DNA of 64,000 bases from positions 25,129 to 89,128 of the forward strand of contig JAJCZE010000016.1 of assembly GCA_029262555.1 (NCBI GenBank). Reading direction: 5' to 3'. This document shows, one piece after another, positions 9,771-61,684 of this stretch. Under the pieces are notes generated by a model that was not told where the DNA came from, searched no databases, and was given only the letters and a program-made list of their open reading frames with translations. The stretch comes from Candidatus Babelota bacterium. Its GTDB lineage: Bacteria; Babelota; Babeliae; Babelales; Vermiphilaceae. Position numbers and translations under genes: made by a program. The first letter of the stretch is position 1; each line of letters starts with the position of its first letter.

Positions 9771-10127
9771 GCAGGTATTTCCTTCCTGATAATAAAAAAA
9801 GAACAATAAGAAACTGTCTAACTTCCTTTATGTTAGCAGACAACTTAATAATTGTAAAAATAATCATTGTTGAAAATTCTCATTCGAAAAAAATCATAAT
9901 GCCTGGCAATATCACATATTTAGGCCTCTCCGCACAGCGTTACAATTTGAAACGATAAATCAGGCCTCATTTCGAGACTTCAAGCAGCCTCTCCTTATAA
10001 AAAGAACCCCCATTTCATTGACAAATCGCTCAATGCCGATACCCTGATAATGTGGATTATTCTCATACTATAGGGGGATAAGTCCCCACTCAAATTGCAA
10101 TAAGAAAAATTAAAAGGGAATAAAACG

Positions 10128-39508: not shown

Positions 39509-39931
39509 TTACCGTTTGGTAAACTGGAATTTACGACGAGCAGCTTTTTGACCCGGTTTTTTACGCTCTTTTTTACGAGCATCAACCGTTAAAAGCCCCT
39601 TGCCTCTTAATTCAGACTTAGTCGCTTCATCGAGCTGTACAAAGCATCGAGCGATCGCTAGTTTCACAGCATCCGCCTGAGCAGCTTTACCACCGCCAGT
39701 TACTGTTACTTTCATGTCGAACTTTTCAGACATCGGTAAAAGACGAAGTGGCGTTGCAGCGTTTTCTACGTCAATTTTGGTATCAAAGTATTGAGAAATA
39801 TCGAGATTGTTTACTCGAACATCACCCTTACCAGAGCGACACCATACACGAGCAACCGACTTTTTGCGGCGACCAACACCGTGTGCAAGAGACGTATTTT
39901 TTACTGAAGCTGACGCTTTTTCTTGTGCCAT
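39509..39931 (-). CDS. rpsI: 30S ribosomal protein S9
   Basis: GGGKAAQADAVKLAIARC and the C-terminal PGQKAARRKFQFTKR. No rplM lies upstream of it in this window. Confidence 0.95.
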   Translation of the reverse strand: MAQEKASASVKNTSLAHGVGRRKKSVARVWCRSGKGDVRVNNLDISQYFDTKIDVENAATPLRLLPMSEKFDMKVTVTGGGKAAQADAVKLAIARCFVQLDEATKSELRGKGLLTVDARKKERKKPGQKAARRKFQFTKR

Positions 39932-40081
39932 ACCGTTTAAAACCTTTCAATAGAATGGAATATGCCTGAATTTTATGGATAAAACCATACTCTTATCGTA
40001 GAGAATCTGGGGTAAAATGTCAAAAAAGAGTGCTGAAAGACCTCTCTTTCTTTGCTCAAACACCCAAAGAGGCCCCCACAG

Positions 40082-40133
40082 GCCCTATCCCTTATCCTCA
40101 AAGGTCTCTTGGCAACCCAAACAGCGAGCCGCA
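40082..40133. repeat. Direct repeat copy A, a non-functional duplicate of the dksA 3' end
   Basis: This 52-bp segment is identical, apart from one synonymous-position mismatch, to 42949-43000. On the minus strand it reads AARCLGCQETFEDKG-stop, but an in-frame TAG lies just upstream and there is no start codon. Confidence 0.9.
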
Positions 40134-40275
40134 CCTGCCTATTCATCTCTCAACAGATAAATATCTAATATGTATATCTAGCAAAAGAGAGAACTATTGC
40201 CTTTTTGAAAATAAAAATGGCACATTGAGAATAATAAAAAAAAGAGGGCCTTGTTTTAGCAAAGGAAAAATCAAA

Positions 40276-42936
40276 ATGAATAAGATCTCAATGCTGCTTA
40301 TAGTAACTATTTTTACTTGTAGCTTACATAGTCAAGCCGCTCAGGCACCTAAAACAAACGCCAGCTTCATCAATGCTGTAAAAATCCTCCGCGGAGAGCG
40401 ATCTGTACTAAAAAGCAAGGCAATCCTTGCTGGTGCAGGCGCTGCAGCTGCTACCGGATTAGCTGTAACCTCACCTCAAATTATAGATCCTGAAATGGAA
40501 ATCCAGCTTTATCGCGAAGCTCGTGGTGGAATTCCCGAGGGCCAAGAATGGAGCGAAGACTATAAAACTGAACATATGCGCAATATCGGAGAAAAAGCTA
40601 TCATCGTTGCGGCTGGATCAGCAGCTATCGGAGCTGGGGTGGGTGCTCTTTATAGTAAGGGAAAAAAGCACTATATCCTTTCAAAGCTGAATTCGCTACT
40701 TCGAGCGTACACCGATTATTCCTCATTTCAAAGCCTCACATTTGCCCAAAGTGCTCTATTATATGCTGCCTATATGCAAGATCTCGATCAGCTCAAGCAA
40801 CTTGCACAAAAAAATTCTGATTTTCTCAATGAAAAAGGAATATTTAACGTCATCACCTCACTGTTTTATAATAAGCATGCAACTCATGATTTAATGGCCG
40901 CGCTCAAAGAGCATTTAAAAATAGATACGATACAAATTCACTATTTGCCAGACATTTTAGCGCGCCAGTCTTTACGGCAAAAAGCTCGAGAAGCAAGGGA
41001 CACAGGAATTGCAACAATAAAATCTGGGGGCGCTGCAATTGGATCTAGTATCCGAACAGGAAGAGATGCTATTGGATCTAGAGTCTCACGCGCAACAAAA
41101 GCAGCAACCTCTCCCTTTAGGCTCAACTATATGTCTGAGAAAGCCATTGCCCCCTATATGAATGACCCTTCGCAATATGATGCTTTTTTGCAAAGCTACA
41201 ACCCCAACATTTTGGTCGGGACATTTGGAGGATATTTAACTGGCGCAAATGCCACACCCATACTCGGATATGCATTATGGAATGGAAAAGGTGAATTTGC
41301 TAGCTTTTTAATCGAACATGGCGCAAAAACAAGTGATAATCGCATGCAAAATCGCGCACTGTATAATAAAAAGGGATATAATAGCTACTTAGATTTGGCA
41401 ATCGACAAAAAACAATTAAATGTTGTAAAAAAGCTGATAAAACTTGGATTGAAAATAGGAGACAAAGAGCTTCGCCGTGCCTTTACAACTCCTGATCAAT
41501 CCATTCAATCCTATATTGAAAGCATAATCTCAAATCCAGAACACTTACAGCCTGGCGTTGCCCCTCTTAATATCGCCGTCTCAATCGGCAATAAAGACCT
41601 TGTAAAAAGATTATTCAATACAAAAAATATCAACAATGCTGATTTAAATGGCAACACCCCATTACATATAGCAGTAAATCAATCTAATACAGATTTAATA
41701 AAATTATTGCTAGAAAGTGACGCATCTGTTGAAGCTAAAAACAAGAAAGGAAACACTCCTTTACACCTCGCAAAAAAGGCTGCGATTGCAAACTTATTGA
41801 TTCAGCAAGGAGCCTCAACAAATAGTAAAAACAATGAAGGCAAAATCCCACTCTTTATCGCCCTAGAAGGAAATGATCCGTTATTAATTAAAGCCCTTGC
41901 GCAAGGAGTAGATCTTGCTATCGCAAATCAAGCTGGTAATAGCTTGCTTCACCAAGCAATTAGACACAATAAAAATGATTTTGCGAAAATGATTTTGCAA
42001 AAAAATCCTTCTTTAATTGATCAAATAAATCAACAAAAAGAAACACCTCTTGCCCTGGCTGCCAAACTTGAAAATAATCAAATGATTAATTTTTTGATTG
42101 CCAACAATGCAAATATAGAGTCTCGCAATAGCGATAATGCTACACCACTGATAATTGCCATTTCGAACAACAATATAGACGGTGCTAAACAGCTACTATC
42201 TTATAATGCAGACCCAAACGCTACAGATAAGCATAGTGATAGCTCTTTGCATAAAGCTGTCGGCTTTAAGCGGATCACAATTATCGATGATTTACTTAAA
42301 AACGGGGCTTCGATAGACAAGCAAGACCTTCTAGGAAATTATCCGCTTCATATTGCACTTACTAAAGACCTTCCGGGTCATATCATCATAAAGCTCATTT
42401 CTCCTACTAATATCAATGCATCTAACAACGCTGGGAACACCCCGCTGAGCCTCACAAAAAACAAACAATCAATGCTCGCATTACTTCGAGCAGGAGCTGA
42501 TCCTAATATTGCGCTTAACAATAACGATACGGCTCTTCAAATTGCTGCAAAAAATCTCGACTCTGATAGCGTGTCAACCCTTTTGCAGCATGGAGCTCGA
42601 ACTAACTTTATAAACAATCAAGGAAACTTACCTCTTCACACGGCGCTACTTGCCATGCAAACTAATTTCTTCACACCAAATGCGACCAAAACAATTGGCA
42701 TTATTCAAAGCTTAATAAGCCCACAAATAATAAATAGCCCCAATAACGATGGGCGGACCCCTATAAGCATTGCCGCAAGTATACCTAATGCTCAACTCAG
42801 CAAACAAATAATTCAATTATTATATCAACATGGAGCCCGGAACGATATTCCCGACTTAAAAGGAAAATTCCCTCATGAATACTCGCTCTATACCGACGTT
42901 CGTAAATTGCTCGGCTATATACCGCCAACACACTAA
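40276..42936 (+). CDS. Ankyrin-repeat protein with signal peptide and N-terminal hydrophobic segments
   Basis: I prefer the start at MNKISMLLIVTIFTCSLHSQA (AAAGGA RBS) over the GTG at 40030, because the GTG extension reads through the dksA remnant. The C-terminal two-thirds holds many 33-aa ANK units (GNTPLHIAVNQSNTDLIKLLLESDASVEAKNKK...). Confidence 0.9.
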   Translation: MNKISMLLIVTIFTCSLHSQAAQAPKTNASFINAVKILRGERSVLKSKAILAGAGAAAATGLAVTSPQIIDPEMEIQLYREARGGIPEGQEWSEDYKTEHMRNIGEKAIIVAAGSAAIGAGVGALYSKGKKHYILSKLNSLLRAYTDYSSFQSLTFAQSALLYAAYMQDLDQLKQLAQKNSDFLNEKGIFNVITSLFYNKHATHDLMAALKEHLKIDTIQIHYLPDILARQSLRQKAREARDTGIATIKSGGAAIGSSIRTGRDAIGSRVSRATKAATSPFRLNYMSEKAIAPYMNDPSQYDAFLQSYNPNILVGTFGGYLTGANATPILGYALWNGKGEFASFLIEHGAKTSDNRMQNRALYNKKGYNSYLDLAIDKKQLNVVKKLIKLGLKIGDKELRRAFTTPDQSIQSYIESIISNPEHLQPGVAPLNIAVSIGNKDLVKRLFNTKNINNADLNGNTPLHIAVNQSNTDLIKLLLESDASVEAKNKKGNTPLHLAKKAAIANLLIQQGASTNSKNNEGKIPLFIALEGNDPLLIKALAQGVDLAIANQAGNSLLHQAIRHNKNDFAKMILQKNPSLIDQINQQKETPLALAAKLENNQMINFLIANNANIESRNSDNATPLIIAISNNNIDGAKQLLSYNADPNATDKHSDSSLHKAVGFKRITIIDDLLKNGASIDKQDLLGNYPLHIALTKDLPGHIIIKLISPTNINASNNAGNTPLSLTKNKQSMLALLRAGADPNIALNNNDTALQIAAKNLDSDSVSTLLQHGARTNFINNQGNLPLHTALLAMQTNFFTPNATKTIGIIQSLISPQIINSPNNDGRTPISIAASIPNAQLSKQIIQLLYQHGARNDIPDLKGKFPHEYSLYTDVRKLLGYIPPTH

Positions 42937-42948
42937 TAGAGCAAGTAA

Positions 42949-43000
42949 GCCCTATCCCTTGTCCTCAAAGGTCTCTTGGCAACCCAAACAGCGAGCCGCA
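42949..43000. repeat. Direct repeat copy B (the functional 3' end of dksA)
   Basis: It matches 40082-40133 at 51 of 52 positions and lies 2867 bp downstream of copy A. Confidence 0.9.
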
Positions 43001-43299
43001 TTGGGATACCATTTCAGGCGTTTTTCTGAAATATCGCTATCGCAATCGATACAGATGCCATATGTGCCATCTTCGATTTTAGAAAGGGCCTGTTTGATAC
43101 GCTTATATTCTTGAAGCTCGGTATCTTGCAAAGAAGATCGAAGGCTTTCCATCGTCGCAGTTAGTGCCTGATCGCCCGGATCTTGCACTTGATCGTCACT
43201 TACCTTCTCGGTTGATAGCTTATGAAGATGCTCTTCAAGCTCATTCCGGCGCTCAGTAAGCTGCGCTTTAATTTTTTTGAGATCCTGATTTGTACTCAC
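42952..43299 (-). CDS. dksA: DksA/TraR family C4-type zinc-finger protein
   Basis: N-terminal coiled coil and a C4 finger (CIDCDSDISEKRLKWYPNAARCLGC). Confidence 0.85.
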   Translation of the reverse strand: MSTNQDLKKIKAQLTERRNELEEHLHKLSTEKVSDDQVQDPGDQALTATMESLRSSLQDTELQEYKRIKQALSKIEDGTYGICIDCDSDISEKRLKWYPNAARCLGCQETFEDKG

Positions 43300-43771
43300 C
43301 TTTTTTTATCCTTTGCATTTGAAAGAATCGCTTCAATAGATGCTCGGCTTGCGCCGCGCAGACACCGCTTACTACTCGCACGTCATTTTTGTATACCGAA
43401 GAGGTCGCAACGTTGTCAAGCTGATATCCAAAGCGCGGTGAGGAAGCTCCAAAGATGAGTGTTTGAATTCTGGAGAGTCGGATCAAGCTATAGCACATAC
43501 TGCACGGCTCAAGCGTTACATATAAGGTACAATCATCCAGGCGCCAATCTCCCCTCTGATCATTTGCCTGCATAATAGCTGTTATTTCTGCATGAGCGCA
43601 CTGCGTATTGCGCCCTTCCACTTGATTATATCCGCGACCAATAATCACACCATTAGCATCTACCACAACTGCGCCAATTGGCACTTCGTTACAATCGAAT
43701 GCCTCTTTCGCCAATGCCAGCGCTTCTTGCATATGTGTAGTATCACGCGTTGAGTCTTTTTTGTCAGACAT
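43268..43771 (-). CDS. tadA: tRNA-specific adenosine deaminase
   Basis: CDA-fold zinc motifs CAHAEITAI and PCSMC. The 3' end overlaps the dksA start by 32 nt. Confidence 0.9.
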   Translation of the reverse strand: MSDKKDSTRDTTHMQEALALAKEAFDCNEVPIGAVVVDANGVIIGRGYNQVEGRNTQCAHAEITAIMQANDQRGDWRLDDCTLYVTLEPCSMCYSLIRLSRIQTLIFGASSPRFGYQLDNVATSSVYKNDVRVVSGVCAAQAEHLLKRFFQMQRIKKGEYKSGSQKN

Positions 43772-43901: not shown

Positions 43902-46334
<2,433 letters not shown>

Positions 46335-46469
46335 AAGCTACATTTTATACTTGTATCTTCACAGTTTGATTACATGTTCTTTAGGCTTTTTGCTCTTTCG
46401 AGCAACTCTAAAATCATGAGTCGCTTTGAGTAGTACTATCATTCTATATTTTACAAGTAGAGGTTTTTT

Positions 46470-46730
46470 ATGAATATTCGCCAACTGTTGGTGGTTGGAT
46501 TGCTGTCTTTTGGGATTGTCTCGATTGAGGCTGGATACAATCGGCGTCAATTATTAAGTCCTAGAGAACAACAAGCATTGCTCAGAAAGTTAACAAAAGA
46601 AGAAGGCAATGGGAGGCTATCACCGCAAAGTAGTCGTCGTCTTGCTTTCCTTCGATCTGCTATGAGTAAAGGCCAAGTACCGGTAGCTGCCCAGCAGCAT
46701 AATTATGACGAATTACCACCACAAGACTAA
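46470..46730 (+). CDS. Hypothetical small secreted protein
   Basis: Signal-like MNIRQLLVVGLLSFGIVSIEA followed by a basic/polar sequence. No family recognised. Confidence 0.5.
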   Translation: MNIRQLLVVGLLSFGIVSIEAGYNRRQLLSPREQQALLRKLTKEEGNGRLSPQSSRRLAFLRSAMSKGQVPVAAQQHNYDELPPQD

Positions 46731-46769
46731 TTAAATAAATACATACCTACTTTCTAATCGAGGTTATAC

Positions 46770-47018
46770 ATGAATTTTTATAAAACGTTATTCTCATTGG
46801 TATTAATACTCAGCATGAGCACTATCTGCCATGGAGTTGCAAAAAAAGGCAACGGTAATCGTAGTAGAAAACTGCAAAGTAAAGTAGTGCGTGATAAAAA
46901 AAGGCACGAAAGAATACATGGCAAAAAACACACTGCTCAAGGAGCAGATATGAGCGCCTTATATCTCTTTACAGAAAGCCCTACTCACGGTAGACGCGTT
47001 CCTCGCGCTCAACAATAA
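46770..47018 (+). CDS. Hypothetical small secreted, highly basic protein
   Basis: Signal-like MNFYKTLFSLVLILSMSTICHG followed by a Lys/Arg/His-rich sequence. No family recognised. Confidence 0.5.
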   Translation: MNFYKTLFSLVLILSMSTICHGVAKKGNGNRSRKLQSKVVRDKKRHERIHGKKHTAQGADMSALYLFTESPTHGRRVPRAQQ

Positions 47019-47045
47019 GAGCATCTCGTACATCAAACGAAGGTT

Positions 47046-48017
47046 ATGAATATTCACACTTCAATCTTCACATTTATTGATCAAGAAAATCTGATTCCTG
47101 AAGGCTCAACTATTGTGTTGGGCCTTTCGGGCGGCCCTGATTCTGTTTATTTGCTACACCTTCTTTTGACGCTCAAAAAAGAAGGCCGTATCCAGCAAAT
47201 TATCGTAGCTCATTTGGATCATGAGTGGCGTACCAATTCTCAAAACGATACCGATTTTTGCAAGGCACTTGCGCAATCGAATGAACTACCATTTGAAACG
47301 GCAAAAATGTCAGAGCTTTCAATTGATCTTAAGTGGGACGGCTCTAAAGAGCAAATAGCTCGAACTGCTCGTCGATTCTTTTTAGAATCAGTGGCGCAGC
47401 AGTATTCTGCAGATGCAATCGCATTAGGGCAACATGCGCAAGATCAACAAGAAACATTTTTCATTCGCCTACTACGCGGTACAAGCTTAAGTGGTCTCTG
47501 CGGAATATGGCCAAAGCGAGGATTATATATTCGCCCGCTTTTGCACACTAATAAAGCAGACATTCATGCCTACTTGGAACGCAATGGCATTGCGTATCTT
47601 GAAGATCCAAGCAATCAAGAACAATCATTTTTACGTAATCGCATTCGTGCGCACGTTATTCCTGCGTTAAAGCAGGCTGACGATCGATTTGATAGTTCAT
47701 TTGAACAAACAATTGATCGGCTCCAACAAACAGAAGCGTACCTCGATCAGCATGCAAAGCAGCTCCTCGAAGCAATGAGCAATCAACGCGATTCGATTTA
47801 CCACGTAGACGTGAAACAACTCCTTGCCCAACCACTCATCATGCAATCGCGATTAATTATCCTTTGGCTCACGCAATCAAACGTACAGTTTCCCGTTACG
47901 CAAACCTTTATTAATGAAATTCTGCGATTCTTGCAATCCCCTCAGGGAGGATCTCATGCTCTGCATGAAACATGGAAAATCATAAAAAAGCAGGGTATCG
48001 CATCCATTCAAAAATAA
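47046..48017 (+). CDS. tilS: tRNA(Ile)-lysidine synthase
   Basis: PP-loop GLSGGPDSVYL, HLDHEWR, and the overall N-type ATP-pyrophosphatase layout. Confidence 0.9.
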   Translation: MNIHTSIFTFIDQENLIPEGSTIVLGLSGGPDSVYLLHLLLTLKKEGRIQQIIVAHLDHEWRTNSQNDTDFCKALAQSNELPFETAKMSELSIDLKWDGSKEQIARTARRFFLESVAQQYSADAIALGQHAQDQQETFFIRLLRGTSLSGLCGIWPKRGLYIRPLLHTNKADIHAYLERNGIAYLEDPSNQEQSFLRNRIRAHVIPALKQADDRFDSSFEQTIDRLQQTEAYLDQHAKQLLEAMSNQRDSIYHVDVKQLLAQPLIMQSRLIILWLTQSNVQFPVTQTFINEILRFLQSPQGGSHALHETWKIIKKQGIASIQK

Positions 48018-50145: not shown

Positions 50146-51005
50146 TCTCCCCTAGCCGTTCGCCCTGCCTGCCAGGCGTAGCCTTGGCGTAGACTGGAGC
50201 GTGTCGAAGGGTTCTGAGCGGAAAAAATTATTTTTCTAAATAACTGATCACCAACAACTCGATCTGAGTCTAAAATTTCTTTTGAAAAAGATGATATTTT
50301 ATACGCAAGCACAGACTCTATAAACGTATCTATTTTTTCATTTCGTGGAATGATATCGCTTTCTTGTGCAGTCGATTTTAAAGCAATCAGCTTCCCAATA
50401 TCTTGATCAAAATCTATATATGGAGCAAGCCCTGTTCGTAAGGATTTCATATCCATGGGGGGCAACGTGCCATGCACTTCAATCCATTTAAAAGCAAATG
50501 CCGGACGAATCGCATAGCAATACAATTTCACTTTCACGCTCTGCTCATCGCATTCTATTTGTTTCCAAATTGCCTGGAACAACTTATAATAATGCGTTTT
50601 TATATGCTCAAGATCGGCAGTTTTTTGAACATACTGCCAGAGCTCATCGACGATCGTTTTTTCTGTTTTATAAACAATGGGCGATTGCAACCATTCAATC
50701 AATATTGAATTTGATTTCAGCGCTAAATAAAGTGCTTTTCGAATATCCCACCCGTTTAAATCTAACGGCACTCCGAGCTGAGGATCGTGCAAAATATCAG
50801 TTTCTAATACATCTCTCTGCTGAATAATAGAAAAATAATCATCATAGGGCCGTACATATAAAAATCGCACATCATAATCGCTATCAACTGAGGGAAAGCC
50901 CCACGCACGACTGCCAGACTCTATTGCAAAAATAATAGTAACTTTATGCGTACTTTCAAACTCGGTCAGTTTTTGCGCGATATGATTGTTTATAGCGGTG
51001 GTCAT
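50142..51005 (-). CDS. COG3541 / pfam10127-type nucleotidyltransferase (Pol-beta superfamily), copy 1
   Basis: The NTase motif AIESGSRAWGFPSVDSDYDVRFLYV and LNGWDIRKALYLALKSNSILIEWLQSPIVY are typical of this family. The last 25 or so codons (...NPSTRSSLRQGYAWQAGRTARGD) come from a dispersed repeat. The start overlaps the stop of copy 2 (ATGA). Confidence 0.85.
   Translation of the reverse strand: MTTAINNHIAQKLTEFESTHKVTIIFAIESGSRAWGFPSVDSDYDVRFLYVRPYDDYFSIIQQRDVLETDILHDPQLGVPLDLNGWDIRKALYLALKSNSILIEWLQSPIVYKTEKTIVDELWQYVQKTADLEHIKTHYYKLFQAIWKQIECDEQSVKVKLYCYAIRPAFAFKWIEVHGTLPPMDMKSLRTGLAPYIDFDQDIGKLIALKSTAQESDIIPRNEKIDTFIESVLAYKISSFSKEILDSDRVVGDQLFRKIIFSAQNPSTRSSLRQGYAWQAGRTARGD
50146..50222. 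repeat. Solo arm of the palindromic element, with an internal insertion, embedded in a gene's 3' end
   Basis: The minus strand reads CCCTTCGACACGCTCCAG, then an insert of about 26 nt, then CAGGGCGAACGG. Compare the left arm of the 31233 element, CCCTTCGACAAGCTCAGGGCGAACGG. Confidence 0.5.
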
Positions 51006-52009
51006 GATAATTCTGCTTTTTGTATTTGTTGTAAATATGTCTTTTCAATAAAATCATCAATTAAATGTGGATCACTGGCCTCGGGTAACGTTGATTTCAA
51101 GGCAAGCGCTTCCACCTTGCCTACTAACTGTTCAATTTCTTGCAACACCTCATCATATGAGATGGTTCCTAATTTGATGGCAAATAAGCGCTCTCGCTCT
51201 GGACGTGGAAAAGTAAGGCGATGATCGGTAAGAAATTCCAATGCTTGATGCCCAATGCGAACTGCATGCGATAGCGCCTTCCAATCAGCCCCTGAGTTTT
51301 GTTCAGCCTGTTTTGCCCGGTCGCCATATTGATGAATAACGTTTTGCACAATTTGACGTGCATTTTTAATAGATGCATGAAATGCAATTTTTTTTCCGCA
51401 AACTTGCAGATGCTTCTCTGTAATACCATTTGGCTGCATAAACGAAGTTATTGAAAGATCTGAATGAGCAGAAACAACTGGCATCACTGTATCTATAGTT
51501 TTTACAAGCGGGGCCATTGTTCCATATGTTTGTTCTGCCGATAACAGCACTTCCAATACAGCTCGTGCTGCACTCAATTTTGATCCCTTTTTGCCATACT
51601 TATATGCCTGCTGCTTGCAATACGCCACAAACGATGCCGCTTGTTTAGTTAATAATTGCATCGATAATTTCTTCATCTCATTCCACAGATGATCTGGTGG
51701 CTCTAAAAAAGATGATTCGGGAGCAAAAAGCATTTCTAATGCAAAAGATTGCCCTTTGGCAACAGAACGCAAAAATTTTTCTGGGCTATACAACTCAAAA
51801 TCAGTATCGGTAGAATCATTTTTCTCTCCCAGCCCTTTACTTCGAGTGGCAACAATAACTGGCTCTACTCGCTGCAAAAGGATGTCACGAGCCGAAGGAA
51901 GATAAACGCCCTTGATGTCCAAATCTGATTGAGGGGTATTGGTGCCGTAAAGATGCGATCCATATCGTATCAGCACTATGGATTTATATTTTTTTTTATT
52001 TTGCATCAT
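51002..52009 (-). CDS. COG3541 / pfam10127-type nucleotidyltransferase, copy 2 (long form)
   Basis: The NTase motif YGSHLYGTNTPQSDLDIKGVY, ALEMLFAPES and the C-terminal helical region (YGDRAKQAEQNSGADWKALSHAVRIGHQALEFL) are typical of the family. I prefer an ATG at 52009 or 52006 over the TTG at 52018. Confidence 0.85.
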   Translation of the reverse strand: MMQNKKKYKSIVLIRYGSHLYGTNTPQSDLDIKGVYLPSARDILLQRVEPVIVATRSKGLGEKNDSTDTDFELYSPEKFLRSVAKGQSFALEMLFAPESSFLEPPDHLWNEMKKLSMQLLTKQAASFVAYCKQQAYKYGKKGSKLSAARAVLEVLLSAEQTYGTMAPLVKTIDTVMPVVSAHSDLSITSFMQPNGITEKHLQVCGKKIAFHASIKNARQIVQNVIHQYGDRAKQAEQNSGADWKALSHAVRIGHQALEFLTDHRLTFPRPERERLFAIKLGTISYDEVLQEIEQLVGKVEALALKSTLPEASDPHLIDDFIEKTYLQQIQKAELS

Positions 52010-52021
52010 ATATATCAATTA
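51854..52021. repeat. 168-bp direct repeat, copy 1 (5' end and start region of NTase copy 2)
   Basis: It aligns base for base with 52654-52821, an offset of exactly 800 bp, with about 11 mismatches by eye. The distal 90 bp or so has a single mismatch. Confidence 0.9.
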
Positions 52022-52143
52022 TTGAAAAAGTTTGTATCAATTCATCTGCCATGATTGAAATCGTCTCACAATGCCATTAATTACACTATCCAGTCGCCAG
52101 TATTAGCATTAAGTGGACCAAAAATATAGAAATGCTTTTTTAT

Positions 52144-52614
52144 TTATTTATCTTTTAAAATTCCTTGGTGCTGCTTTTCTTCATCAAAATATTTAATTAA
52201 AAAAGTTTTACTTAAAAAAGGATTTTTCTTATTGATTCTAACAAACTCTACCTCAAAACCGCATTTCTTATAAAAACCTGGAGCTTGAAAATGAGAGGTG
52301 ACAAGATTTATGTTGTTATATCCTTTGCCTTTGAAAAAACTCTCTAATTCTGTCAGCAATTTGCGCCCTAAATTTCTACGTCGATATGAAGGATGTACCC
52401 ATATATCATCAATATAAATTTCTGAAAACGCTGTATAGGCCTGCAAAGCTCCTATTACAATACCGCTTTTATCCTTCATTACAAAAATAATCTTTTTATA
52501 ATTGCAAACAATTCCCTTTTTAGTCTCATCATTTACATGTCCTTGATAAATCAAATCTTCTATACTCGAAGGAAGTTTATCAAGTTTTTCTATTATATAA
52601 CCCTGATTATTCAT
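52144..52614 (-). CDS. GNAT family N-acetyltransferase
   Basis: 156 aa with acetyl-CoA motif A (VHPSYRRRNLGRKLLTELESF) and the C-terminal FYKKCGFE. Confidence 0.88.
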   Translation of the reverse strand: MNNQGYIIEKLDKLPSSIEDLIYQGHVNDETKKGIVCNYKKIIFVMKDKSGIVIGALQAYTAFSEIYIDDIWVHPSYRRRNLGRKLLTELESFFKGKGYNNINLVTSHFQAPGFYKKCGFEVEFVRINKKNPFLSKTFLIKYFDEEKQHQGILKDK

Positions 52615-52647: not shown

Positions 52648-52809
52648 TTAAAAAATAACCGGCTCTACTCGCTGCAAAAGAATGTCGCGAGACGAAGGAA
52701 GGTAGATGCCCTTAATGTCCAAATCTGATTGAGGAGTATTGGTACCGTAAAGATGCGATCCATATCGTATCAGCACTATGGATTTATATTTTTTTTTGTT
52801 TTGCATCAT
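52648..52809 (-). pseudogene. Truncated N-terminal fragment (53 codons) of a COG3541 nucleotidyltransferase
   Basis: It translates to MMQNKKKYKSIVLIRYGSHLYGTNTPQSDLDIKGIYLPSSRDILLQRVEPVIF-stop. This nearly matches the first 51 or so residues of the 51002..52009 product, then ends where the repeat ends. Confidence 0.8.
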
Positions 52810-52821
52810 ATATATCAATTA
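52654..52821. repeat. 168-bp direct repeat, copy 2
   Basis: See copy 1. This copy contains the stop codon of the 245-aa ORF and the NTase fragment. Confidence 0.9.
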
Positions 52822-53521
52822 CCTTTTGAGCGCATGCTTGTAATTCTTGAGCTAATAATTCATTGAATTTTGTTTTCTCGTCATTTTCATAAAGAATATT
52901 TGATAAACAATAAAGGCGTTTTAACTGAAGAAAAAGCGTATAGGATATTCCAGAGTAAACATCTGGATTTTCTAATATACAGCTACTTCGTGCTAAAAAA
53001 TTCTCTACGTTATTTGAAATGAAAAAACCTTCATTATGCTTACTCATTTTTTTTAAATAACCAATAAACGGCTCCACATGCTTTTCAATTAGTTCATTAG
53101 TATACTCAAGGCTATATTCACGCTCTGCTCCAATGATCGAAGGGATCTTGTTATTTTTTTTATGCAATTTTATCGATTTTTTAATATGTATGCTTAACCT
53201 TTTTGCAAGCTCACTAACTTCTTTCCATTGTTCTGTCTTTGAAAAATTATCAAGCATCTCATAGCCTATGATCAAAAAACTAAACATTTGAAATCTTTGG
53301 AATAACTCTAGACCGGTGATTCCGATGATTTGTTGAAAATCAGGAGCATGGCCTTCTAGGATATCAAAGCTCATTGAGCTCGGAAGCCCATGACAATCAA
53401 AACCACACCAAAAATCCATTTCCTGGATATTTTTCTCGATATTGGGATCTGCGATAAAATCAAGAGTGGAACACCATTCGTTTATAAGTATGCTATATAA
53501 GCGCTCATTAGAAAGATTCAC
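52784..53521 (-). CDS. Hypothetical protein (245 aa), AT-rich
   Basis: Uninterrupted ORF with a GTG start that overlaps (GTGA) the stop of a 37-codon upstream ORF. Its last 8 or so codons and its stop lie inside repeat copy 2. No family recognised. Confidence 0.6.
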   Translation of the reverse strand: MNLSNERLYSILINEWCSTLDFIADPNIEKNIQEMDFWCGFDCHGLPSSMSFDILEGHAPDFQQIIGITGLELFQRFQMFSFLIIGYEMLDNFSKTEQWKEVSELAKRLSIHIKKSIKLHKKNNKIPSIIGAEREYSLEYTNELIEKHVEPFIGYLKKMSKHNEGFFISNNVENFLARSSCILENPDVYSGISYTLFLQLKRLYCLSNILYENDEKTKFNELLAQELQACAQKVIDIYDAKQKKI

Positions 53522-53631: not shown

Positions 53632-53746
53632 ATATGGCCTCTTATATGCTATTTTTGAATTATGAGACTCACCTTTATAATATTATATAAGCCCATTTAT
53701 GACAATCTACTAAAACAGATGGTTTTTGTGGTTTAAAAAGGCAAAC

Positions 53747-54511
53747 ATGCATAATTTTCTTGATCTTATAAAAAGGCAAAAGGTTGCTGACGTAAAAAGG
53801 CTTCTTAAAGACGGCATTGATCCAAATATTCCAAAAATCATCTCAACTGATCCGTATGTGGTCGAACTATTCCCCTTAATCGTGGCTGTTAAAACTGGAA
53901 ATTTGGAGATCGTAAAACTCCTTATTGCACATGGAGCAAAGGTTGATGTAAGTACCATTTCTGATGGCCAAACGCCACTACACACTGCATTTTTTATTAA
54001 TGGCGACTATCCACAAGCCTTTACTCAAAAAGAGGGTGCGCAAAAAATAACTGAAATGGTCCATTATTTAGTTTCGCTCGGCGCAGATATAAATGCCGAA
54101 GGTGGATTTTGCCTTACCCCCTTTTTATTGGCAATAGACGCAGTAAAGAAGAAATGCGTCGATGTGAGCTTGCTGCAATATTTAATTGATCATGGTGCAG
54201 ATGTAAATAAAGTGCTTACGTGCGTTGATGAAAATAAATCTCGAACCACTGCGCTTGGCGCGGCAATAGAAGTGCATAGTTTAGATACAGGAGGACACCC
54301 CAAGTTCATAAACTTGGAGATTTTTGCATTGCTCATCAAAAACGGAGCTGACCCATCAATTAACCCAAAGGGATTTACTCCACTTCAAGAAGCGTTCGAT
54401 ATACAAGAACAATTGCAAAACAACTTAACCAACTTGAAACAACAAATTAATAACGCTGAGAAAATTGTTGAATATTTAAAATCCGCAACGCAAATCAATA
54501 ACAATGAATAA
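53747..54511 (+). CDS. Ankyrin-repeat protein
   Basis: ANK units such as FPLIVAVKTGNLEIVKLLIAHGAKVD and QTPLHTAFF. I prefer the ATG at 53747 over the TTG at 53726. The stop overlaps the next start. Confidence 0.88.
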   Translation: MHNFLDLIKRQKVADVKRLLKDGIDPNIPKIISTDPYVVELFPLIVAVKTGNLEIVKLLIAHGAKVDVSTISDGQTPLHTAFFINGDYPQAFTQKEGAQKITEMVHYLVSLGADINAEGGFCLTPFLLAIDAVKKKCVDVSLLQYLIDHGADVNKVLTCVDENKSRTTALGAAIEVHSLDTGGHPKFINLEIFALLIKNGADPSINPKGFTPLQEAFDIQEQLQNNLTNLKQQINNAEKIVEYLKSATQINNNE

Positions 54512-55223
54512 AGTTACCGAACTCATCCAAACAATTAAGTCAAATGACGAAGTACTGGTCGAAAAACTTCTCACGCAGGGTGCAGATCCAAATGGGTATA
54601 TGCCTGAAGCAGATACACGTATCTTTACAGGAGCAACTACTCCTTTAATGGCTGCATCCCGTCAAAAAAATACCGCAATTTTAAAACTTCTCGTTCGATT
54701 TGGCCTTACAATACAAGGAGCTGAACCATTGCGTGCTGCAATCGCTCCAAACTATTTATTGCAAGCTCGAATTTCACAAGACGAGGTTCGCATGCGTACG
54801 ATGGAAACAATAAAATATTTAGTCTATCACGGTGCTGATTTGAATGCCCCTGATGAGCTCTTCGAACTAACACCATTCTTGATGGCGATCTATGAAAATG
54901 ACCTAGAATTAGTAGCATTTTTTATTGATCAGGGTGCAATTATAAATCAAATCTCAAAAAAACGAAATACAAAACTGGTTACTCCCCTTTTAGCTGCCAT
55001 TGAAACACATTCAGCTCCAATAGTTAAGCTGCTCTTGAAACATGGAGGAAACGCGAATCAAATCGTTGAACATAAAGAGCCGCTTCAATACTCTCGAGAT
55101 ACGCTTACATTACTTAAAACTAATGCCAATAAAATACAAAAACTATCTACCAACAACGATAAAATTATCGATCTATTGGTTCGTAACGGCGCCAAGACTG
55201 ATTATCCATGGATAGATAAATAA
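54504..55223 (+). CDS. Ankyrin-repeat protein
   Basis: ANK units: TTPLMAASRQKNTAILKLLVRFG, TPFLMAIYENDLELVAFFIDQGA and VTPLLAAIETHSAPIVKLLLKHGGNAN. Confidence 0.88.
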   Translation: MNKVTELIQTIKSNDEVLVEKLLTQGADPNGYMPEADTRIFTGATTPLMAASRQKNTAILKLLVRFGLTIQGAEPLRAAIAPNYLLQARISQDEVRMRTMETIKYLVYHGADLNAPDELFELTPFLMAIYENDLELVAFFIDQGAIINQISKKRNTKLVTPLLAAIETHSAPIVKLLLKHGGNANQIVEHKEPLQYSRDTLTLLKTNANKIQKLSTNNDKIIDLLVRNGAKTDYPWIDK

Positions 55224-55373
55224 CAATTGATATAAACTTTCAAATAGTCGGCTTCTGAACTTAAAAAGTACCAATACCACCTCTCACAGAGCTCATCAAA
55301 GCCCCTTTTTACTAAAATGTCCCTATTTGATATATTATTCATAAGAATATAATTGTTATTTTCCTTAGGGGTT

Positions 55374-56198
55374 ATGATGAATAAACAGTTTTTAGTATTT
55401 CCTATGATCATTGCAGTGCTAATAGGTGCTCTTTCTGGGTGTATTTCTCAGCAGCATAATAAACAACTACCCACAAGCACGTTCGAAACACCGCGAGAAA
55501 CTCCAAAAATCGTGCGTTCAGAAAAAAATAACATTATTGATTTTTCAATAAAACCACGAGCTGTGCCTGAAATAAAAATAGGTGAATGCGCCTATTGTGG
55601 TAAAGAAACCGAGAATGCATGTGAACGCTGTAAACTTACCTGCTACTGCTCTCAGGAATGCCTAAAATTAAATAAGTGGAAGCACTCAGCAGAATGTGAC
55701 GAAATTAGACAAGCGTATTTTGGCGACTTAGAATGCATGAAAAAGGCTTGCTATGCTTACTTTCGAAAAGCAGCGCTCTCGCCAAATGACTCTTTCTTTT
55801 TGAAACGAGGAATGTCCTGGTTTCAGAGAACTCTTATTAGGTTAAGTCAAGATATCGAATGCTCTAAAGATCCCTCTACCATGGCGGCTATAGAGCAGTT
55901 TTGCATGGAAGTAGGTTCGTTTACTCAGCCACTAGTTAAAAATAATATTTGCACGGAAGAAGATTTGAAAAATCTTGGCAAAGAAGTTTTTTCAGAGAGC
56001 ATTGAATGGGTAGCTCGCATAACTAAAGCAAATATGCTTGTACCGCCTTACGACATAAGAATATATGGGCTTAAAGTATTTAAAAATCCTGAACTTAATA
56101 TTGAAAACGAATTTATACCTAAAAATGAGTGGTATGCTAAGCGCATGAGTGTATTACAAGAATATGAAAAAAGACTGAATGACATCGTGTCTTCATAA
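55374..56198 (+). CDS. Putative lipoprotein with a MYND-type zinc finger
   Basis: Signal peptide with a lipobox (MMNKQFLVFPMIIAVLIGALSGC). CAYCGKETENACERCKLTCYCSQECLKLNKWKHSAEC fits the MYND pattern C-x2-C-x7-C-x2-C-x4-YCS-x2-C-x5-W-x2-H-x3-C. Confidence 0.85.
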   Translation: MMNKQFLVFPMIIAVLIGALSGCISQQHNKQLPTSTFETPRETPKIVRSEKNNIIDFSIKPRAVPEIKIGECAYCGKETENACERCKLTCYCSQECLKLNKWKHSAECDEIRQAYFGDLECMKKACYAYFRKAALSPNDSFFLKRGMSWFQRTLIRLSQDIECSKDPSTMAAIEQFCMEVGSFTQPLVKNNICTEEDLKNLGKEVFSESIEWVARITKANMLVPPYDIRIYGLKVFKNPELNIENEFIPKNEWYAKRMSVLQEYEKRLNDIVSS

Positions 56199-56234
56199 AA
56201 ATGGGTAGATGAATAATAATTGGAAAGGAGTTCC

Positions 56235-56834
56235 GTGAAATGTAAATGGATTATGCTATCACAGCTGCTACTATTCATCATGTCTTTCCCTTTTCTTTTT
56301 CGATATCTCTCATCAAATAAACCAACCCACGACAAGCAGCTTATTGAAAGCATTTCAAAAAAAGAAATTTCCGGCCTTTTGCAAGAAAGCCCCTATGAAC
56401 CAATGGTTGATCTGACGCATAAAACGCGATTGATTCGTTTTTTAATGGAAAATGGGCACACAGATTTTGTATTTGAAAGCCATGATGCAGAGGAAGCTGA
56501 GAAGCTTCGTGATAACCTCAGTCCGGCTCGCCTAGCCTTTGATATGGATGTAATAGATGACGAATATCCCTTAGTAGTCGCATGCTTTTATCGAGAGCAA
56601 TCTCAATATAAGCCATTTTTGACTCAATTGCAGGAACTTGCAAGGCAAAAAGAAGATATTAAGTTTGTCCTTGTTGATGGAGATAAGCTCTTTTCCCTCG
56701 TTGAATGGGCCGCAATTCAGACTTTTCCAACGCTCTTATTCGTCAAAGATGGCGAAATCGTTGATCATTTGGACGATGCTACTATAGAGCAGGTCAGGCC
56801 CAAAATAAACAACCTCGAAGCTAAACAGCCATAA
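56235..56834 (+). CDS. Thioredoxin-fold-like protein lacking the CxxC motif
   Basis: The C-terminal half resembles a thioredoxin fold (PLVVACFYREQSQYKPFLTQLQELARQKEDIKFVLVDGDKLFSLVEWAAIQTFPTLLFVKDGEIV), but REQSQY sits where CxxC would be. The N-terminus is hydrophobic. The start is uncertain (TTG 56220, GTG 56235 or ATG 56253). Confidence 0.55.
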   Translation: MKCKWIMLSQLLLFIMSFPFLFRYLSSNKPTHDKQLIESISKKEISGLLQESPYEPMVDLTHKTRLIRFLMENGHTDFVFESHDAEEAEKLRDNLSPARLAFDMDVIDDEYPLVVACFYREQSQYKPFLTQLQELARQKEDIKFVLVDGDKLFSLVEWAAIQTFPTLLFVKDGEIVDHLDDATIEQVRPKINNLEAKQP

Positions 56835-56925
56835 ATAGACGATTTTATTGCGGTTTTAATCAAACATGATACCATGAAAACTATGGAAAAACCGCCACTG
56901 AAATCGTTTTTGATTGGATATCATT

Positions 56926-60263: not shown

Positions 60264-60273
60264 TGAGACTTGA

Positions 60274-61665: not shown

Positions 61666-61684
61666 GAACAGCAGGGGAGATTGA

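What the first reader, a model, noticed from the sequence alone, without database searches (positions are those of the whole stretch)
40082..43000. Ankyrin gene bracketed by 52-bp direct repeats that duplicate the 3' end of dksA
The sequence GCCCTATCCCTT(A/G)TCCTCAAAGGTCTCTTGGCAACCCAAACAGCGAGCCGCA occurs at 40082-40133 and at 42949-43000, matching at 51 of 52 positions and 2867 bp apart.

Copy B is the real end of dksA (…AARCLGCQETFEDKG-stop on the minus strand). Copy A encodes the same 15 residues and stop, but has an in-frame stop upstream and no start, and it sits right next to rpsI.

The unique DNA between the copies is one signal-peptide-bearing ankyrin gene with its own upstream region. 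This implies an ancestral tadA-dksA-rpsI-glmS arrangement that the ankyrin gene split.

The architecture matches the GNAT insertion at 52 kb. That suggests a recurrent, recombinase-less way of acquiring host-interaction genes in this genome.
Basis: seen in the sequence. Interest (0 to 1): 0.7.

Follow-up and report, generated by a model that had tools for sequence, protein, structure and literature searches.

The report
Ankyrin gene insertion duplicating dksA end
In this Dependentiae (TM6) bacterium a single secreted ankyrin-repeat gene was recently dropped between two core genes, duplicating 52 bp of the target; this is a clean new example of a rare but already described way of gaining genes, "insertion with long target duplication".

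Summary
The 52-mer occurs exactly twice in the window (40082-40133 and 42949-43000), matching at 51 of 52 positions, where chance predicts no copies. Copy B is the true 3' end of dksA. Copy A is a startless fragment 150 bp upstream of rpsI. Between them lie 2,815 bp holding one self-contained gene for an 886-aa ankyrin protein with a signal peptide.

Two sister-strain assemblies (93-97% nt identity) carry gyrB-tadA-dksA-rpsI-glmS with the 52-mer once and no ankyrin gene, so they are empty sites. The same gene order holds in about 70 Dependentiae species genomes.

No recombinase or transposase domain, terminal inverted repeat, hairpin or tRNA is associated with the insert.

The structure meets the published criteria for "insertion with long target duplication" (ILTD; Nobusato 2000, Furuta 2010), which was described mainly for restriction-modification genes. 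As in those cases, the repeat spans a stop codon, so the target gene survives.

The GNAT case at 52 kb is similar, with a 171-nt repeat and an empty site in a relative. It is older and more complex.

Verdict: the insertion itself is firm and the molecular mechanism is inferred. It is a new member of a known kind, of moderate interest.

The parts
40082..40133 (-). Copy A of the 52-nt duplication. It is an orphan fragment of the dksA 3' end (15 codons, stop and 3 nt) with no start and an in-frame stop upstream. On its rpsI side it joins the native dksA-rpsI spacer.
   Evidence: 48/52 identical to the single copy in L001
42949..43000 (-). Copy B of the duplication. It is the functional 3' end of dksA.
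   Evidence: 47/52 identical to L001. Its one difference from copy A is a synonymous GAT>GAC change.
40134..42948 (+). Inserted DNA (2,815 bp) that is absent from the empty-site relatives. GC is 0.391 against a window mean of 0.399.
40134..40275 (+). The insert's own upstream region. It has a promoter-like TTGAAA-16-GAGAAT at 40205-40232 and an AAGGA ribosome-binding site before the ATG.
   Evidence: consensus match only
40276..42936 (+). Gene for an 886-aa ankyrin-repeat protein. It has an N-terminal signal peptide, a Gly/Ala-rich hydrophobic segment at aa 107-127, and a long ANK solenoid from about aa 330 to 886. It belongs to a family restricted to Dependentiae.
42952..43299 (-). dksA (115 aa, DksA/TraR zinc finger), left intact by the duplication. 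Its stop is 15 nt from the stop of the convergent ankyrin gene.
43268..43771 (-). tadA-like deaminase, overlapping the start of dksA
39932..40081 (-). Native dksA-rpsI spacer, retained intact next to copy A. It contains an rpsI promoter-like site, TTGACA-17-TACGAT, at 40023-39995.
39509..39931 (-). rpsI (ribosomal protein S9), 100% identical in protein to the copies in L001 and L002
37591..39435 (-). glmS
43914..46334 (+). gyrB, divergent from tadA. It is part of the conserved syntenic block.
51851..52024 (-). Comparator case, copy 1 of the 171-174-nt repeat. It covers the last ~37 nt of gene X plus the first ~134 nt of the intact RlaP-like nucleotidyltransferase gene Y (51002-52009).
52651..52824 (-). 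Comparator case, copy 2. It covers the 3' end of the intact X gene (52784-53521) plus a truncated Y 5' fragment (a 53-codon ORF).
52144..52614 (-). GNAT acetyltransferase gene between the 171-nt copies. It is AT-rich (GC 0.293).
52025..52067 (-). A 43-nt relic (RBS plus MADELIQTF) of the 5' end of an L006-type X gene, fused to the X 3' end in copy 1. It reads as an internally deleted second X copy.

Best explanation
This is a single, recent 'insertion with long target duplication' (ILTD).

In the lineage of this Dependentiae genome, after it split from the ERR3534980/ERR3534996 strain, a ~2.8-kb piece of Dependentiae-type DNA was joined into the end of dksA. The piece carried one complete expression unit: a promoter-like region, a ribosome-binding site, and a gene for a signal-peptide ankyrin protein. 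Its two ends were ligated to target positions 52 bp apart, so the 52 bp between them now flank the insert as direct repeats.

The 52 bp contain the dksA stop codon. As a result dksA stays intact (copy B), and the native spacer and rpsI promoter stay intact behind copy A. Only insertions of this kind would survive selection at such a junction between core genes.

I infer that the joining was done by host functions, through illegitimate or replicative recombination. Two possible routes are capture of a fragment between staggered or sister-chromatid breaks, and a replication-fork template switch out to the donor and back 52 nt earlier. I do not think an element-encoded or site-specific recombinase was involved.

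The cargo most likely acts as a secreted or membrane-anchored host-interaction protein, like other ankyrin proteins of this phylum.

Shown: the insertion, its polarity, its boundaries, the duplication, and the lack of mobility genes or signals. Inferred: the molecular joining mechanism, the donor, and the function of the protein.
For: Empty sites. L001 and L002 are collinear with the window once 40134-43000 is removed. L001 4960-5011 aligns to both copies without a gap. Further empty sites are L007/L009, L090 and L139. The order gyrB/tadA-dksA-rpsI-glmS holds in 69 species-level loci and in 55 metagenome loci.

Age. The two copies differ at 1 of 52 positions. They share 4 synonymous substitutions against L001 (TGT TTG GGT versus TGC CTC GGC). 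The duplication is therefore younger than the ~3-7% split from L001.

Uniqueness. The 52-mer occurs only twice in the window, where chance predicts none.

No mobility machinery or signals. The only Pfam hits in the insert are Ank families. No integrase or transposase domain occurs in any ORF of 110 aa or more in the window. There is no tRNA nearby. There are no terminal inverted repeats. No significant hairpins form in the 52-mer, the empty site or the insert ends. There is no Rfam hit. The 52-mer shares no core with the 171-mer of the second case.

Origin of the cargo. Its composition is native-like (GC 0.391, GC3 0.329). All full-length homologues are from Dependentiae-type contigs, in unrelated contexts.

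Precedent. Furuta et al. 2010 (PMC2853133) define ILTD by an empty-site genome, a target duplication over 30 bp that is unique in the genome, and no mobile genes. They report duplications of 45-423 bp. They note that the repeats often span a start or stop codon, which leaves the target gene intact. One of their examples is a 46-bp repeat overlapping the 3' end of an H. influenzae gene.
Against: No donor copy was found. The best non-self homologue is 55% identical. Microhomology at the two illegitimate junctions therefore cannot be examined, and the joining mechanism remains inference.

The mechanism of ILTD is unresolved in the literature as well. The authors who described it linked it to double-strand breaks made by restriction enzymes, and no such enzyme is present here.

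The window covers only 64 kb of the genome, so an integrase acting in trans cannot be excluded.

The sequence is a metagenome-assembled contig, and I could not check reads across the junctions.
Confidence: 0.6

Rival explanations
1. Campbell-type integration. A circular DNA molecule carried the ankyrin gene plus a copy of the 52-bp dksA 3' end. Such a circle could have looped out of an earlier DR-flanked copy in another strain, or formed from a circularised fragment of a genome where the ankyrin gene lay next to dksA. It then recombined once, by RecA-type homologous recombination, with the resident dksA end. That would duplicate the homologous segment.
For: A single crossover with a circle gives exactly this topology. 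In it, the repeat equals the shared homology, one gene copy is intact and the other is a fragment. Both copies share the same 4 substitutions relative to L001. That is compatible with both copies deriving from, or being converted by, one incoming 52-mer. RecJ is encoded in the window, so recombination functions exist. Kobayashi's group proposed a release and re-insertion cycle for DR-flanked units.
Against: The model needs an earlier event that joined the ankyrin gene to a dksA end, so it only moves the problem back one step. None of ~125 related loci has an ankyrin-family homologue beside dksA. At 52 bp the homology is near the lower limit for efficient homologous recombination (my own knowledge). 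dksA next to the repeat shows no patch of donor-like divergence; identity to L001 there is 96-98%.
Confidence: 0.2
2. Site-specific integration of a small non-autonomous islet, similar to a cis-mobilisable element (CIME). An integrase encoded elsewhere in the genome recognises an att site in the dksA 3' end. On this view the 52-mers are attL and attR.
For: Many integrative elements target the 3' ends of genes and rebuild them, which leaves direct repeats of tens of bp (discussed in PMC2853133). The dksA-rpsI spacer is expanded by accessory genes in 15 of 69 species loci and 11 of 55 metagenome loci.
Against: No integrase is present in the insert or anywhere in the 64-kb window. The second DR-flanked insertion in the window uses an unrelated 171-nt repeat with no shared core. 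The other insertions in the dksA-rpsI spacer carry unrelated cargo: WD40, APH, IS200, GIY-YIG and unknown secreted proteins. They also lack dksA-end repeats, except for L018, which is a tandem duplication. No tRNA is involved.
Confidence: 0.07
3. Tandem duplication followed by loss or replacement. A segment starting inside the dksA 3' end was duplicated in tandem. Later deletion, or recombination with another genome, left one fragment and the foreign gene between the copies. This is the alternative pathway proposed for rRNA operons in PMC3457768.
For: Tandem duplications whose unit starts inside a core-gene 3' end do occur in this phylum. In L018 the dksA end is repeated before each of two paralogous secreted-protein genes. 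In L040 the glmS end is present three times. The GNAT case carries a relic of a second copy of gene X, which fits a longer duplication that was later trimmed.
Against: At the ankyrin locus there is only one copy of the cargo. Copy A joins the native spacer exactly. No relic of any other duplicated sequence lies in 40134-40275. The empty-site relatives show that the cargo was not there to be duplicated. The model needs at least three events where ILTD needs one.
Confidence: 0.05
4. Assembly artefact. The chromosome has an empty site, and the ankyrin DNA belongs elsewhere, or to a separate circular molecule or co-assembled strain that shares the 52-mer. The assembler threaded it in through the repeat.
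For: The window is a metagenome-assembled contig (NCBI contig of 93,387 bp). Two ankyrin-family homologues sit alone on ~3-kb contigs (P0122 on 3,171 bp, P0124 on 2,936 bp). That shows assemblies tend to break around this gene family.
Against: The two copies differ by a SNP, and each has one unique flank, as expected for two real loci. Standard short reads and k-mers of 55 or more span a 52-bp repeat (my own knowledge). The insert's composition matches this genome. A 2.9-kb circle encoding only an ankyrin protein has no replication function.
Confidence: 0.05
5. The ankyrin gene with its repeats is ancestral, and the relatives lost it by precise recombination between the 52-bp repeats.
For: Recombination between direct repeats would regenerate a perfect empty site, so a single empty site cannot give the direction of the event.
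Against: Every one of ~125 related loci, at all divergence levels, lacks an ankyrin-family homologue at this site. The copies are more alike (51/52) than either is to L001 (47-48/52), although copy A is non-coding and should drift freely.
Confidence: 0.03

Closest known systems
Insertion with long target duplication (ILTD). Nobusato et al. 2000, Gene 259:99; Furuta, Abe & Kobayashi 2010, NAR 38:2428 (PMC2853133).
   Same: A gene-sized insert sits where a close relative has an empty site. It is flanked by a long direct duplication (over 30 bp; published range 45-423 bp) of a target sequence that is otherwise unique. There is no transposase, integrase or terminal inverted repeat. The duplication spans a stop or start codon, so the target gene survives. 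The length differs from case to case (52 and 171 nt here).
   Different: Published cargo is almost always restriction-modification genes, and the authors tied the process to double-strand breaks made by those enzymes. Here the cargo is an ankyrin-repeat secreted protein (and, in the second case, a GNAT) with no nuclease. The host is an obligate intracellular Dependentiae bacterium, not a naturally competent free-living pathogen.
Integrative islands and cis-mobilisable elements (CIMEs) that insert by site-specific recombination into the 3' end of a gene or tRNA (attL/attR repeats)
   Same: Direct repeats duplicate the 3' end of a housekeeping gene. One intact gene copy and one orphan fragment result. 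The element is small and carries no recombinase.
   Different: No integrase was found in the window. The att sequence is not reused: the second case has an unrelated repeat, and other genomes have insertions in the same spacer without repeats. No tRNA is involved.
Campbell-type single-crossover integration of a circular DNA (as with suicide plasmids)
   Same: The topology is identical: the homologous segment ends up duplicated on both sides of the incoming DNA.
   Different: It requires that the incoming DNA already carried the 52-bp dksA end. No such donor is known, and no replicon or plasmid functions are present.
Transposon target-site duplication and integron gene cassettes
   Same: The insert is flanked by direct repeats of the target. 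The cargo is a single gene.
   Different: Target-site duplications are short and of fixed length (under ~15 bp; 19-26 bp for IS1630, per PMC2853133). There are no terminal inverted repeats, no transposase, no attC-like hairpin and no intI. The gene brings its own promoter region.
Tandem duplications that start inside a core-gene end (seen here in other Dependentiae: L018 at dksA, L040 at glmS)
   Same: A fragment of a core-gene 3' end is repeated next to accessory genes for secreted proteins.
   Different: In those loci the cargo is duplicated too, as paralogous neighbours. At the ankyrin locus only the 52 bp are duplicated.

Membership tests
Insertion with long target duplication (criteria of Furuta et al. 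2010) | A related genome has an empty site with similarity on both sides of the insert | tested here: met
   L001 and L002 (93-97% nt identity), L007/L009, L090 and L139 are empty sites
Insertion with long target duplication (criteria of Furuta et al. 2010) | Both flanking repeats align to one single-copy sequence at the empty site | tested here: met
   L001 4960-5011 aligns to window 43000-42949 and to 40133-40082. Identities are 47/52 and 48/52, and 51/52 between the two copies.
Insertion with long target duplication (criteria of Furuta et al. 2010) | The duplication is longer than 30 bp, which is longer than transposon target-site duplications | tested here: met
   52 bp
Insertion with long target duplication (criteria of Furuta et al. 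2010) | The insert is under 20 kb and has no linked mobility genes (transposase, integrase, phage) | tested here: met
   The insert is 2,815 bp and has only Ank Pfam hits. No recombinase domain occurs in any ORF of 110 aa or more in the 64-kb window.
Insertion with long target duplication (criteria of Furuta et al. 2010) | The repeat sequence is not a multi-copy element of the genome | tested here: inconclusive
   There are only 2 copies in the window and one copy per related locus. The rest of this genome is not available. An exact 33-mer was absent from JGI metagenome contigs.
Insertion with long target duplication (criteria of Furuta et al. 2010) | The cargo is a restriction-modification system (their screening criterion, and the basis of their double-strand-break hypothesis) | tested here: not met
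   The cargo is an ankyrin-repeat protein. This criterion defines their screen, not the rearrangement type. The same group also reports ILTD for 'other DNAs' (PMC3457768).
Site-specific integrative element (att-flanked island or CIME) | A tyrosine or serine recombinase is encoded in or next to the element | tested here: not met
   None in the insert or the window. An integrase elsewhere in the genome could not be tested.
Site-specific integrative element (att-flanked island or CIME) | The same att core is reused by independent insertions | tested here: not met
   The 52-mer and the 171-mer align with a local score of 9, against a shuffle mean of 8.3 and maximum of 15. Other genomes' insertions in the dksA-rpsI spacer have no dksA-end repeats.
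DNA transposon / IS | Terminal inverted repeats, a transposase, and a short target-site duplication of fixed length | tested here: not met
   No inverted repeat pairs the insert ends. There is no transposase. The duplications are 52 and 171 nt.
Integron gene cassette | An attC imperfect palindrome that folds as a hairpin, a promoterless ORF, and intI/attI | tested here: not met
   The 52-mer and the insert ends fold no better than shuffles, with z-scores from -0.2 to -1.3. The gene has its own 142-bp upstream region with a promoter-like site. There is no intI.
Dependentiae secreted ankyrin-repeat effectors | An N-terminal signal peptide plus ankyrin repeats, encoded in a Dependentiae genome | tested here: met
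   Pfam Ank_2 E=1.4e-57. A hydrophobic N-terminus is followed by AQA. The AF2 model shows an ANK solenoid at aa ~330-886 with pLDDT above 90. DksA relatives are named Dependentiae/Babeliales. In C. destructans, 78% of 98 ankyrin proteins have signal peptides (PMC6561590). Secretion and host targeting were not tested.

The most novel reading that the evidence does not exclude
Dependentiae may routinely gain and shuffle secreted host-interaction genes (ANK, WD40 and small signal-peptide proteins) by one dedicated process. This process would be recombinase-independent or would use an enzyme not yet recognised. It would insert complete gene units at the ends of core genes while duplicating tens to hundreds of bp of the target. 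On this view ILTD is a main engine of effector turnover in this intracellular phylum and is independent of restriction enzymes. The hints are two such structures within 64 kb here, repeats of core-gene ends in L018 and L040, and accessory genes in the dksA-rpsI spacer in about a fifth of related genomes.
Probability: 0.12. Interest if true: 0.65.

Novelty: new member of a known kind. Interest (0 to 1): 0.4.

Why it matters
[quoted passage not shown] The boundaries are exact, the copies match at 51/52, sister strains provide empty sites, and synteny across the phylum gives the direction of the event.

The cargo has no nuclease. That argues the process is a general host-mediated route of gene gain, not something driven by restriction enzymes as first proposed.

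It also shows, at base-pair resolution, how an obligate intracellular bacterium of a poorly known phylum adds a secreted ankyrin protein to its repertoire without damaging the flanking core genes.

It does not reveal a new kind of mobile element. The joining mechanism remains as unresolved here as it is in the literature.

Tried and rejected
Searches that found nothing useful:
- Exact-protein look-ups of the window's DksA, of P0001 and of P0121 found no record.
- I looked for a donor. The best non-self homologue of the ankyrin protein is 55% identical. Its relatives sit in unrelated contexts (L003, L004/L005, L089) with no flanking repeats.
- The ankyrin upstream region and the flanks of L089 match nothing informative.
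- An exact 33-mer of the repeat is absent from JGI metagenome contigs.

Ideas tested and rejected:
- A third DR-flanked ankyrin gene (106-nt repeat at 60197/61608). This is ordinary tandem paralogy, in which neighbouring ankyrin genes share their C-terminus and start region.
- A patch of donor DNA in dksA that would indicate homology-anchored import. None was seen; identity to L001 is 96-98% right up to the repeat.
- Hairpin or attC-like structure, or an RNA family, at the site. None was found.
- A shared core between the 52-mer and the 171-mer. None was found.
- A strong intrinsic terminator at the breakpoint. There is only a weak GGGCC/GGCC stem after the dksA stop, and the scan did not call it.

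A screen of 1.11 Mb of Dependentiae loci for direct repeats gave mostly tandem arrays of small secreted-protein paralogues.

A structural search on the ankyrin model was not run, because Pfam and the AF2 model already identify it as an ANK solenoid.


Full report
**1. The observation**

The 52-nt sequence occurs at 40082-40133 (copy A) and 42949-43000 (copy B). The copies match at 51/52 and lie 2867 bp apart start to start. With up to 3 mismatches allowed these are the only matches in the 64-kb window, and 100 dinucleotide shuffles gave none.

On the minus strand, copy B is the last 15 codons, the stop codon and 3 further nt of a 115-aa DksA/TraR zinc-finger gene (42952-43299). Copy A encodes the same AARCLGCQETFEDKG-stop, but a stop lies two codons upstream and there is no start.

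The 2,815 bp between the copies contain a single gene, 40276-42936 on the plus strand. It encodes 886 aa, begins MNKISMLLIVTIFTCSLHSQAAQA, and has strong ankyrin-repeat Pfam hits. It is preceded by 142 bp of its own upstream DNA, with a promoter-like TTGAAA-16-GAGAAT and an AAGGA ribosome-binding site. Only 12 bp follow its stop.

The neighbouring genes are glmS, rpsI, then the insert, then dksA and tadA (all minus strand), followed by the divergent gyrB.

**2. Which organism it is, and the direction of the event**

DksA homologues identify the organism as Candidatus Dependentiae/Babeliales (TM6).

An exact-protein look-up of RpsI returned two Logan assemblies (ERR3534980 and ERR3534996; L001 and L002). 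They are 93-97% identical to the window in DNA. They carry gyrB-tadA-dksA-rpsI-glmS with 153 bp between dksA and rpsI and no ankyrin gene. L001 4960-5011 aligns without gaps to both window copies. Deleting 40134-43000 makes the window collinear with L001.

Further empty sites are OFTM129 (L007/L009; DksA 84-85% identical) and two JGI contigs with DksA 87% identical (L090, L139).

The same gene order is present in 69 species-representative genomes and in 55 metagenome contigs. None has a homologue of this ankyrin family at the site.

The two window copies share four synonymous differences from L001 (TGT TTG GGT versus TGC CTC GGC) and differ from each other at one site. The duplication therefore arose in the window's lineage after the split from L001. 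Loss in all the relatives is not credible.

**3. What is absent**

- The insert encodes nothing but the ankyrin protein.
- No integrase, transposase, resolvase or phage domain was found in any ORF of 110 aa or more in the window.
- The only tRNA is at 5.7 kb.
- No inverted repeat pairs the insert ends.
- The 52-mer, the empty site and the insert ends fold no better than shuffled sequence, with z-scores from -0.2 to -1.3.
- No Rfam family matches the region.
- dksA beside the repeat is 96-98% identical to L001, so there is no patch of imported divergent DNA.
- The insert's GC (0.391) and GC3 (0.329) match the window's core genes.
- All full-length homologues (42-55% identical; P0122-P0126) come from Dependentiae-type contigs. 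There they lie in unrelated contexts without flanking repeats.

The cargo therefore probably came from this genome or a related one. No donor could be identified.

**4. What it is**

The anatomy fits the published class 'insertion with long target duplication' (ILTD). Nobusato et al. 2000 found it by comparing two H. pylori genomes, and Furuta et al. 2010 extended it to many bacteria (PMC2853133).

Their criteria are met here:
- an empty-site genome;
- both repeats aligning to one target sequence;
- a duplication over 30 bp;
- an insert under 20 kb;
- no mobility genes.

Their examples have duplications of 45-423 bp. One is a 46-bp repeat overlapping the 3' end of an H. influenzae gene. [quoted passage not shown] That is exactly the situation here: dksA keeps its end through copy B, and the spacer and the rpsI promoter-like site (40023-39995) stay attached to rpsI behind copy A.

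The difference is the cargo. ILTD was described for restriction-modification genes and was attributed to the double-strand breaks they make. Here the cargo has no nuclease.

**5. How it most likely happened**

Shown: one insertion event with clean boundaries, no microhomology visible beyond the repeat, and no recombinase signals.

Inferred: host-mediated illegitimate or replicative joining of a ~2.8-kb fragment to target positions 52 bp apart. This could happen by staggered or sister-chromatid breaks with capture of a fragment, or by a fork template switch out to the donor and back. Selection would then keep only events that preserve both core genes.

The rivals are as follows.
- **Campbell-type crossover** with a circle that already carried the 52-mer. 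The topology is identical, but it needs an unseen precursor, and no relative has this gene beside dksA.
- **An integrase acting in trans on an att site.** There is no integrase in the window, no shared core with the second case, and the other insertions in this spacer lack repeats.
- **Tandem duplication followed by trimming.** This needs several steps, and no relic is present.
- **Misassembly of the MAG.** The SNP between the copies and the unique flanks argue against it, but reads were not available.
- **Ancestral presence with precise loss in the relatives.** Phylogenetic distribution and repeat identity contradict this.

**6. The second case, at 52 kb**

A 171-174-nt repeat (51851-52024 and 52651-52824) flanks a GNAT gene (52144-52614). 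The repeat spans the stop of gene X and the start of an RlaP-like nucleotidyltransferase gene Y.

A JGI contig (L006, about 83% nt identity) has X-Y adjacent, with the segment present once. That makes it an empty site.

The case is not a simple twin of the ankyrin insertion.
- The copies are 91-93% identical. That is almost as diverged as either copy is from L006 (87-89%).
- A 43-nt relic of the 5' end of an L006-type X gene (MADELIQTF) is fused to the X 3' end beside copy 1.
- The intact X gene in the window is only 34% identical in protein to L006's X, whereas the closest homologue of Y, encoded on L006, is 81% identical over the 78% of Y it covers.
- X and GNAT are both AT-rich, at GC 0.32 and 0.29 against 0.40 for Y.

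This points to one of two histories. Either a much longer original duplication (all of X plus the Y start) was later trimmed, or recombination occurred between two diverged genomes. It supports the idea that core-gene ends get duplicated during gene gain. It does not show that the same single-step event happened twice.

**7. The wider pattern**

The dksA-rpsI spacer is usually 110-600 bp long. It exceeds 650 bp in 15 of 69 species loci and in 11 of 55 metagenome loci (the two sets overlap).

The cargo at those expanded sites includes:
- signal-peptide proteins of unknown function;
- a WD40 protein (L092);
- an APH kinase (L071);
- an IS200-type transposase (L024);
- a GIY-YIG nuclease (L031);
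- tRNA-like sequence.

Only L018 repeats the dksA end there, and it does so as part of a tandem duplication of a secreted-protein gene.

A screen of 1.11 Mb of these loci plus the window found ten direct-repeat pairs of 35 nt or more. Only four of the loci involved have repeats that include core-gene ends: the window's two cases, L018, and L040 (where the glmS 3' end is present three times, next to small secreted-protein genes). The remaining pairs are tandem paralogue arrays.

The phenomenon therefore recurs in the phylum at low frequency and by more than one route.

**8. The cargo protein**

The family is conserved over its full length in six Dependentiae sequences.

The AF2 model has a mean pLDDT of 74.5. 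It shows a confident ankyrin solenoid from about aa 330 to 886, a helical region at aa 130-220, and a low-confidence N-terminus. The N-terminus contains the signal peptide and a Gly/Ala-rich hydrophobic segment at aa 107-127.

In cultured Dependentiae, ankyrin proteins are the dominant predicted secreted effectors. C. destructans has 98 such genes, and 78% carry signal peptides (PMC6561590; see also PMC4776705). A host-interaction role is therefore plausible but untested.

**9. Verdict**

The observation and the inferred ancestral arrangement are confirmed. The event is a genuine, recent insertion with a 52-bp target duplication and no associated mobility machinery.

It is a new member of a known kind (ILTD). 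It is notable for its cleanliness, its non-restriction cargo and its host phylum. The joining mechanism remains an inference.

Interest 0.4.

Noticed in passing
window 52025-52067: A 43-nt relic (RBS plus MADELIQTF…) of the 5' end of an L006-type gene X is fused directly to the X 3' end and the Y start. It looks like an internally deleted second X copy next to the GNAT insertion. The intact X gene (52784-53521) is only 34% identical in protein to L006's X.
   Followed up: partly
window 46400-47060 vs L001 337-913 and L002 1827-2151: The cluster of small genes between gyrB and tilS is hypervariable (73-85% nt identity against 95-99% nearby). L002 has one extra gene (96 aa) and L001 has two (75 and 96 aa). 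The window keeps only the start-codon context (…ATATTCAT), which suggests a deletion at short GATTGA repeats.
   Followed up: partly
window 53726-64000: This is an ankyrin-rich plasticity zone with at least six ankyrin genes. Neighbouring genes share the C-terminus ALDLAATDEIKKLIE and the following start region (106-nt repeat at 60197-60302 and 61608-61713, 75% identical). That is tandem paralogy, not target duplication. L006 lacks about 4 kb of this zone.
   Followed up: partly
L040 10099-10159, 10260-10316, 11033-11093: In another Dependentiae MAG (MFD04434.bin.1.151), the last 57-66 nt of glmS, including its stop codon, occur three times. The two extra copies each lie 1-3 nt from the stop of a convergent small gene for a signal-peptide protein. 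Relative L026 has about 800 bp less at this position.
   Followed up: partly
L018 7322-7381 / 8042-8100 and 7880-7965 / 8573-8659: A unit that begins in the last ~20 nt of dksA and contains a secreted-protein gene is duplicated in tandem. The dksA end is therefore repeated before each of two paralogues (182 and 173 aa).
   Followed up: partly
dksA-rpsI spacer in L024, L031, L071, L092, L047/L154, L069, L060: The same spacer holds unrelated accessory genes in other Dependentiae: an IS200-type Y1 transposase (L024), a GIY-YIG nuclease (L031), an APH phosphotransferase (L071), a signal-peptide WD40 protein (L092), and arrays of unknown signal-peptide proteins up to 4.4 kb. ORFs that look like translated tRNA genes occur in L048 and L069.
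   Followed up: partly
window 39509-39931 and all related loci: rpsI is not preceded by rplM. Throughout Dependentiae it follows dksA and precedes glmS, which is an unusual and deeply conserved arrangement. Several relatives appear to have a lysine-rich N-terminal extension on S9.
   Followed up: no
window 6858-8291 and 8403-9806: Two tandem paralogues of TLC-family ATP/ADP translocases, sharing a 34-nt repeat (8085/9561). This fits an energy-parasitic lifestyle.
   Followed up: no
window 19130-20860 and 55353-56198: Two eukaryote-like domains: a PLA2_B (cytosolic phospholipase A2-type) lysophospholipase domain (E=6e-16), and a weak MYND zinc-finger hit (E=1.4e-4, just below the Pfam cut-off).
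   Followed up: no
L089 (3,171 bp) and the contig of P0124 (2,936 bp): Two of the five full-length homologues of the ankyrin protein sit alone on ~3-kb contigs whose ends fall about 250-300 bp from the gene. Assemblies seem to break around this family, possibly because of presence/absence polymorphism. The ends of L089 share no terminal repeat. A 27-nt stretch of its 3' flank matches the dksA-rpsI spacer of L054 (92.6%, E=0.002).
   Followed up: partly
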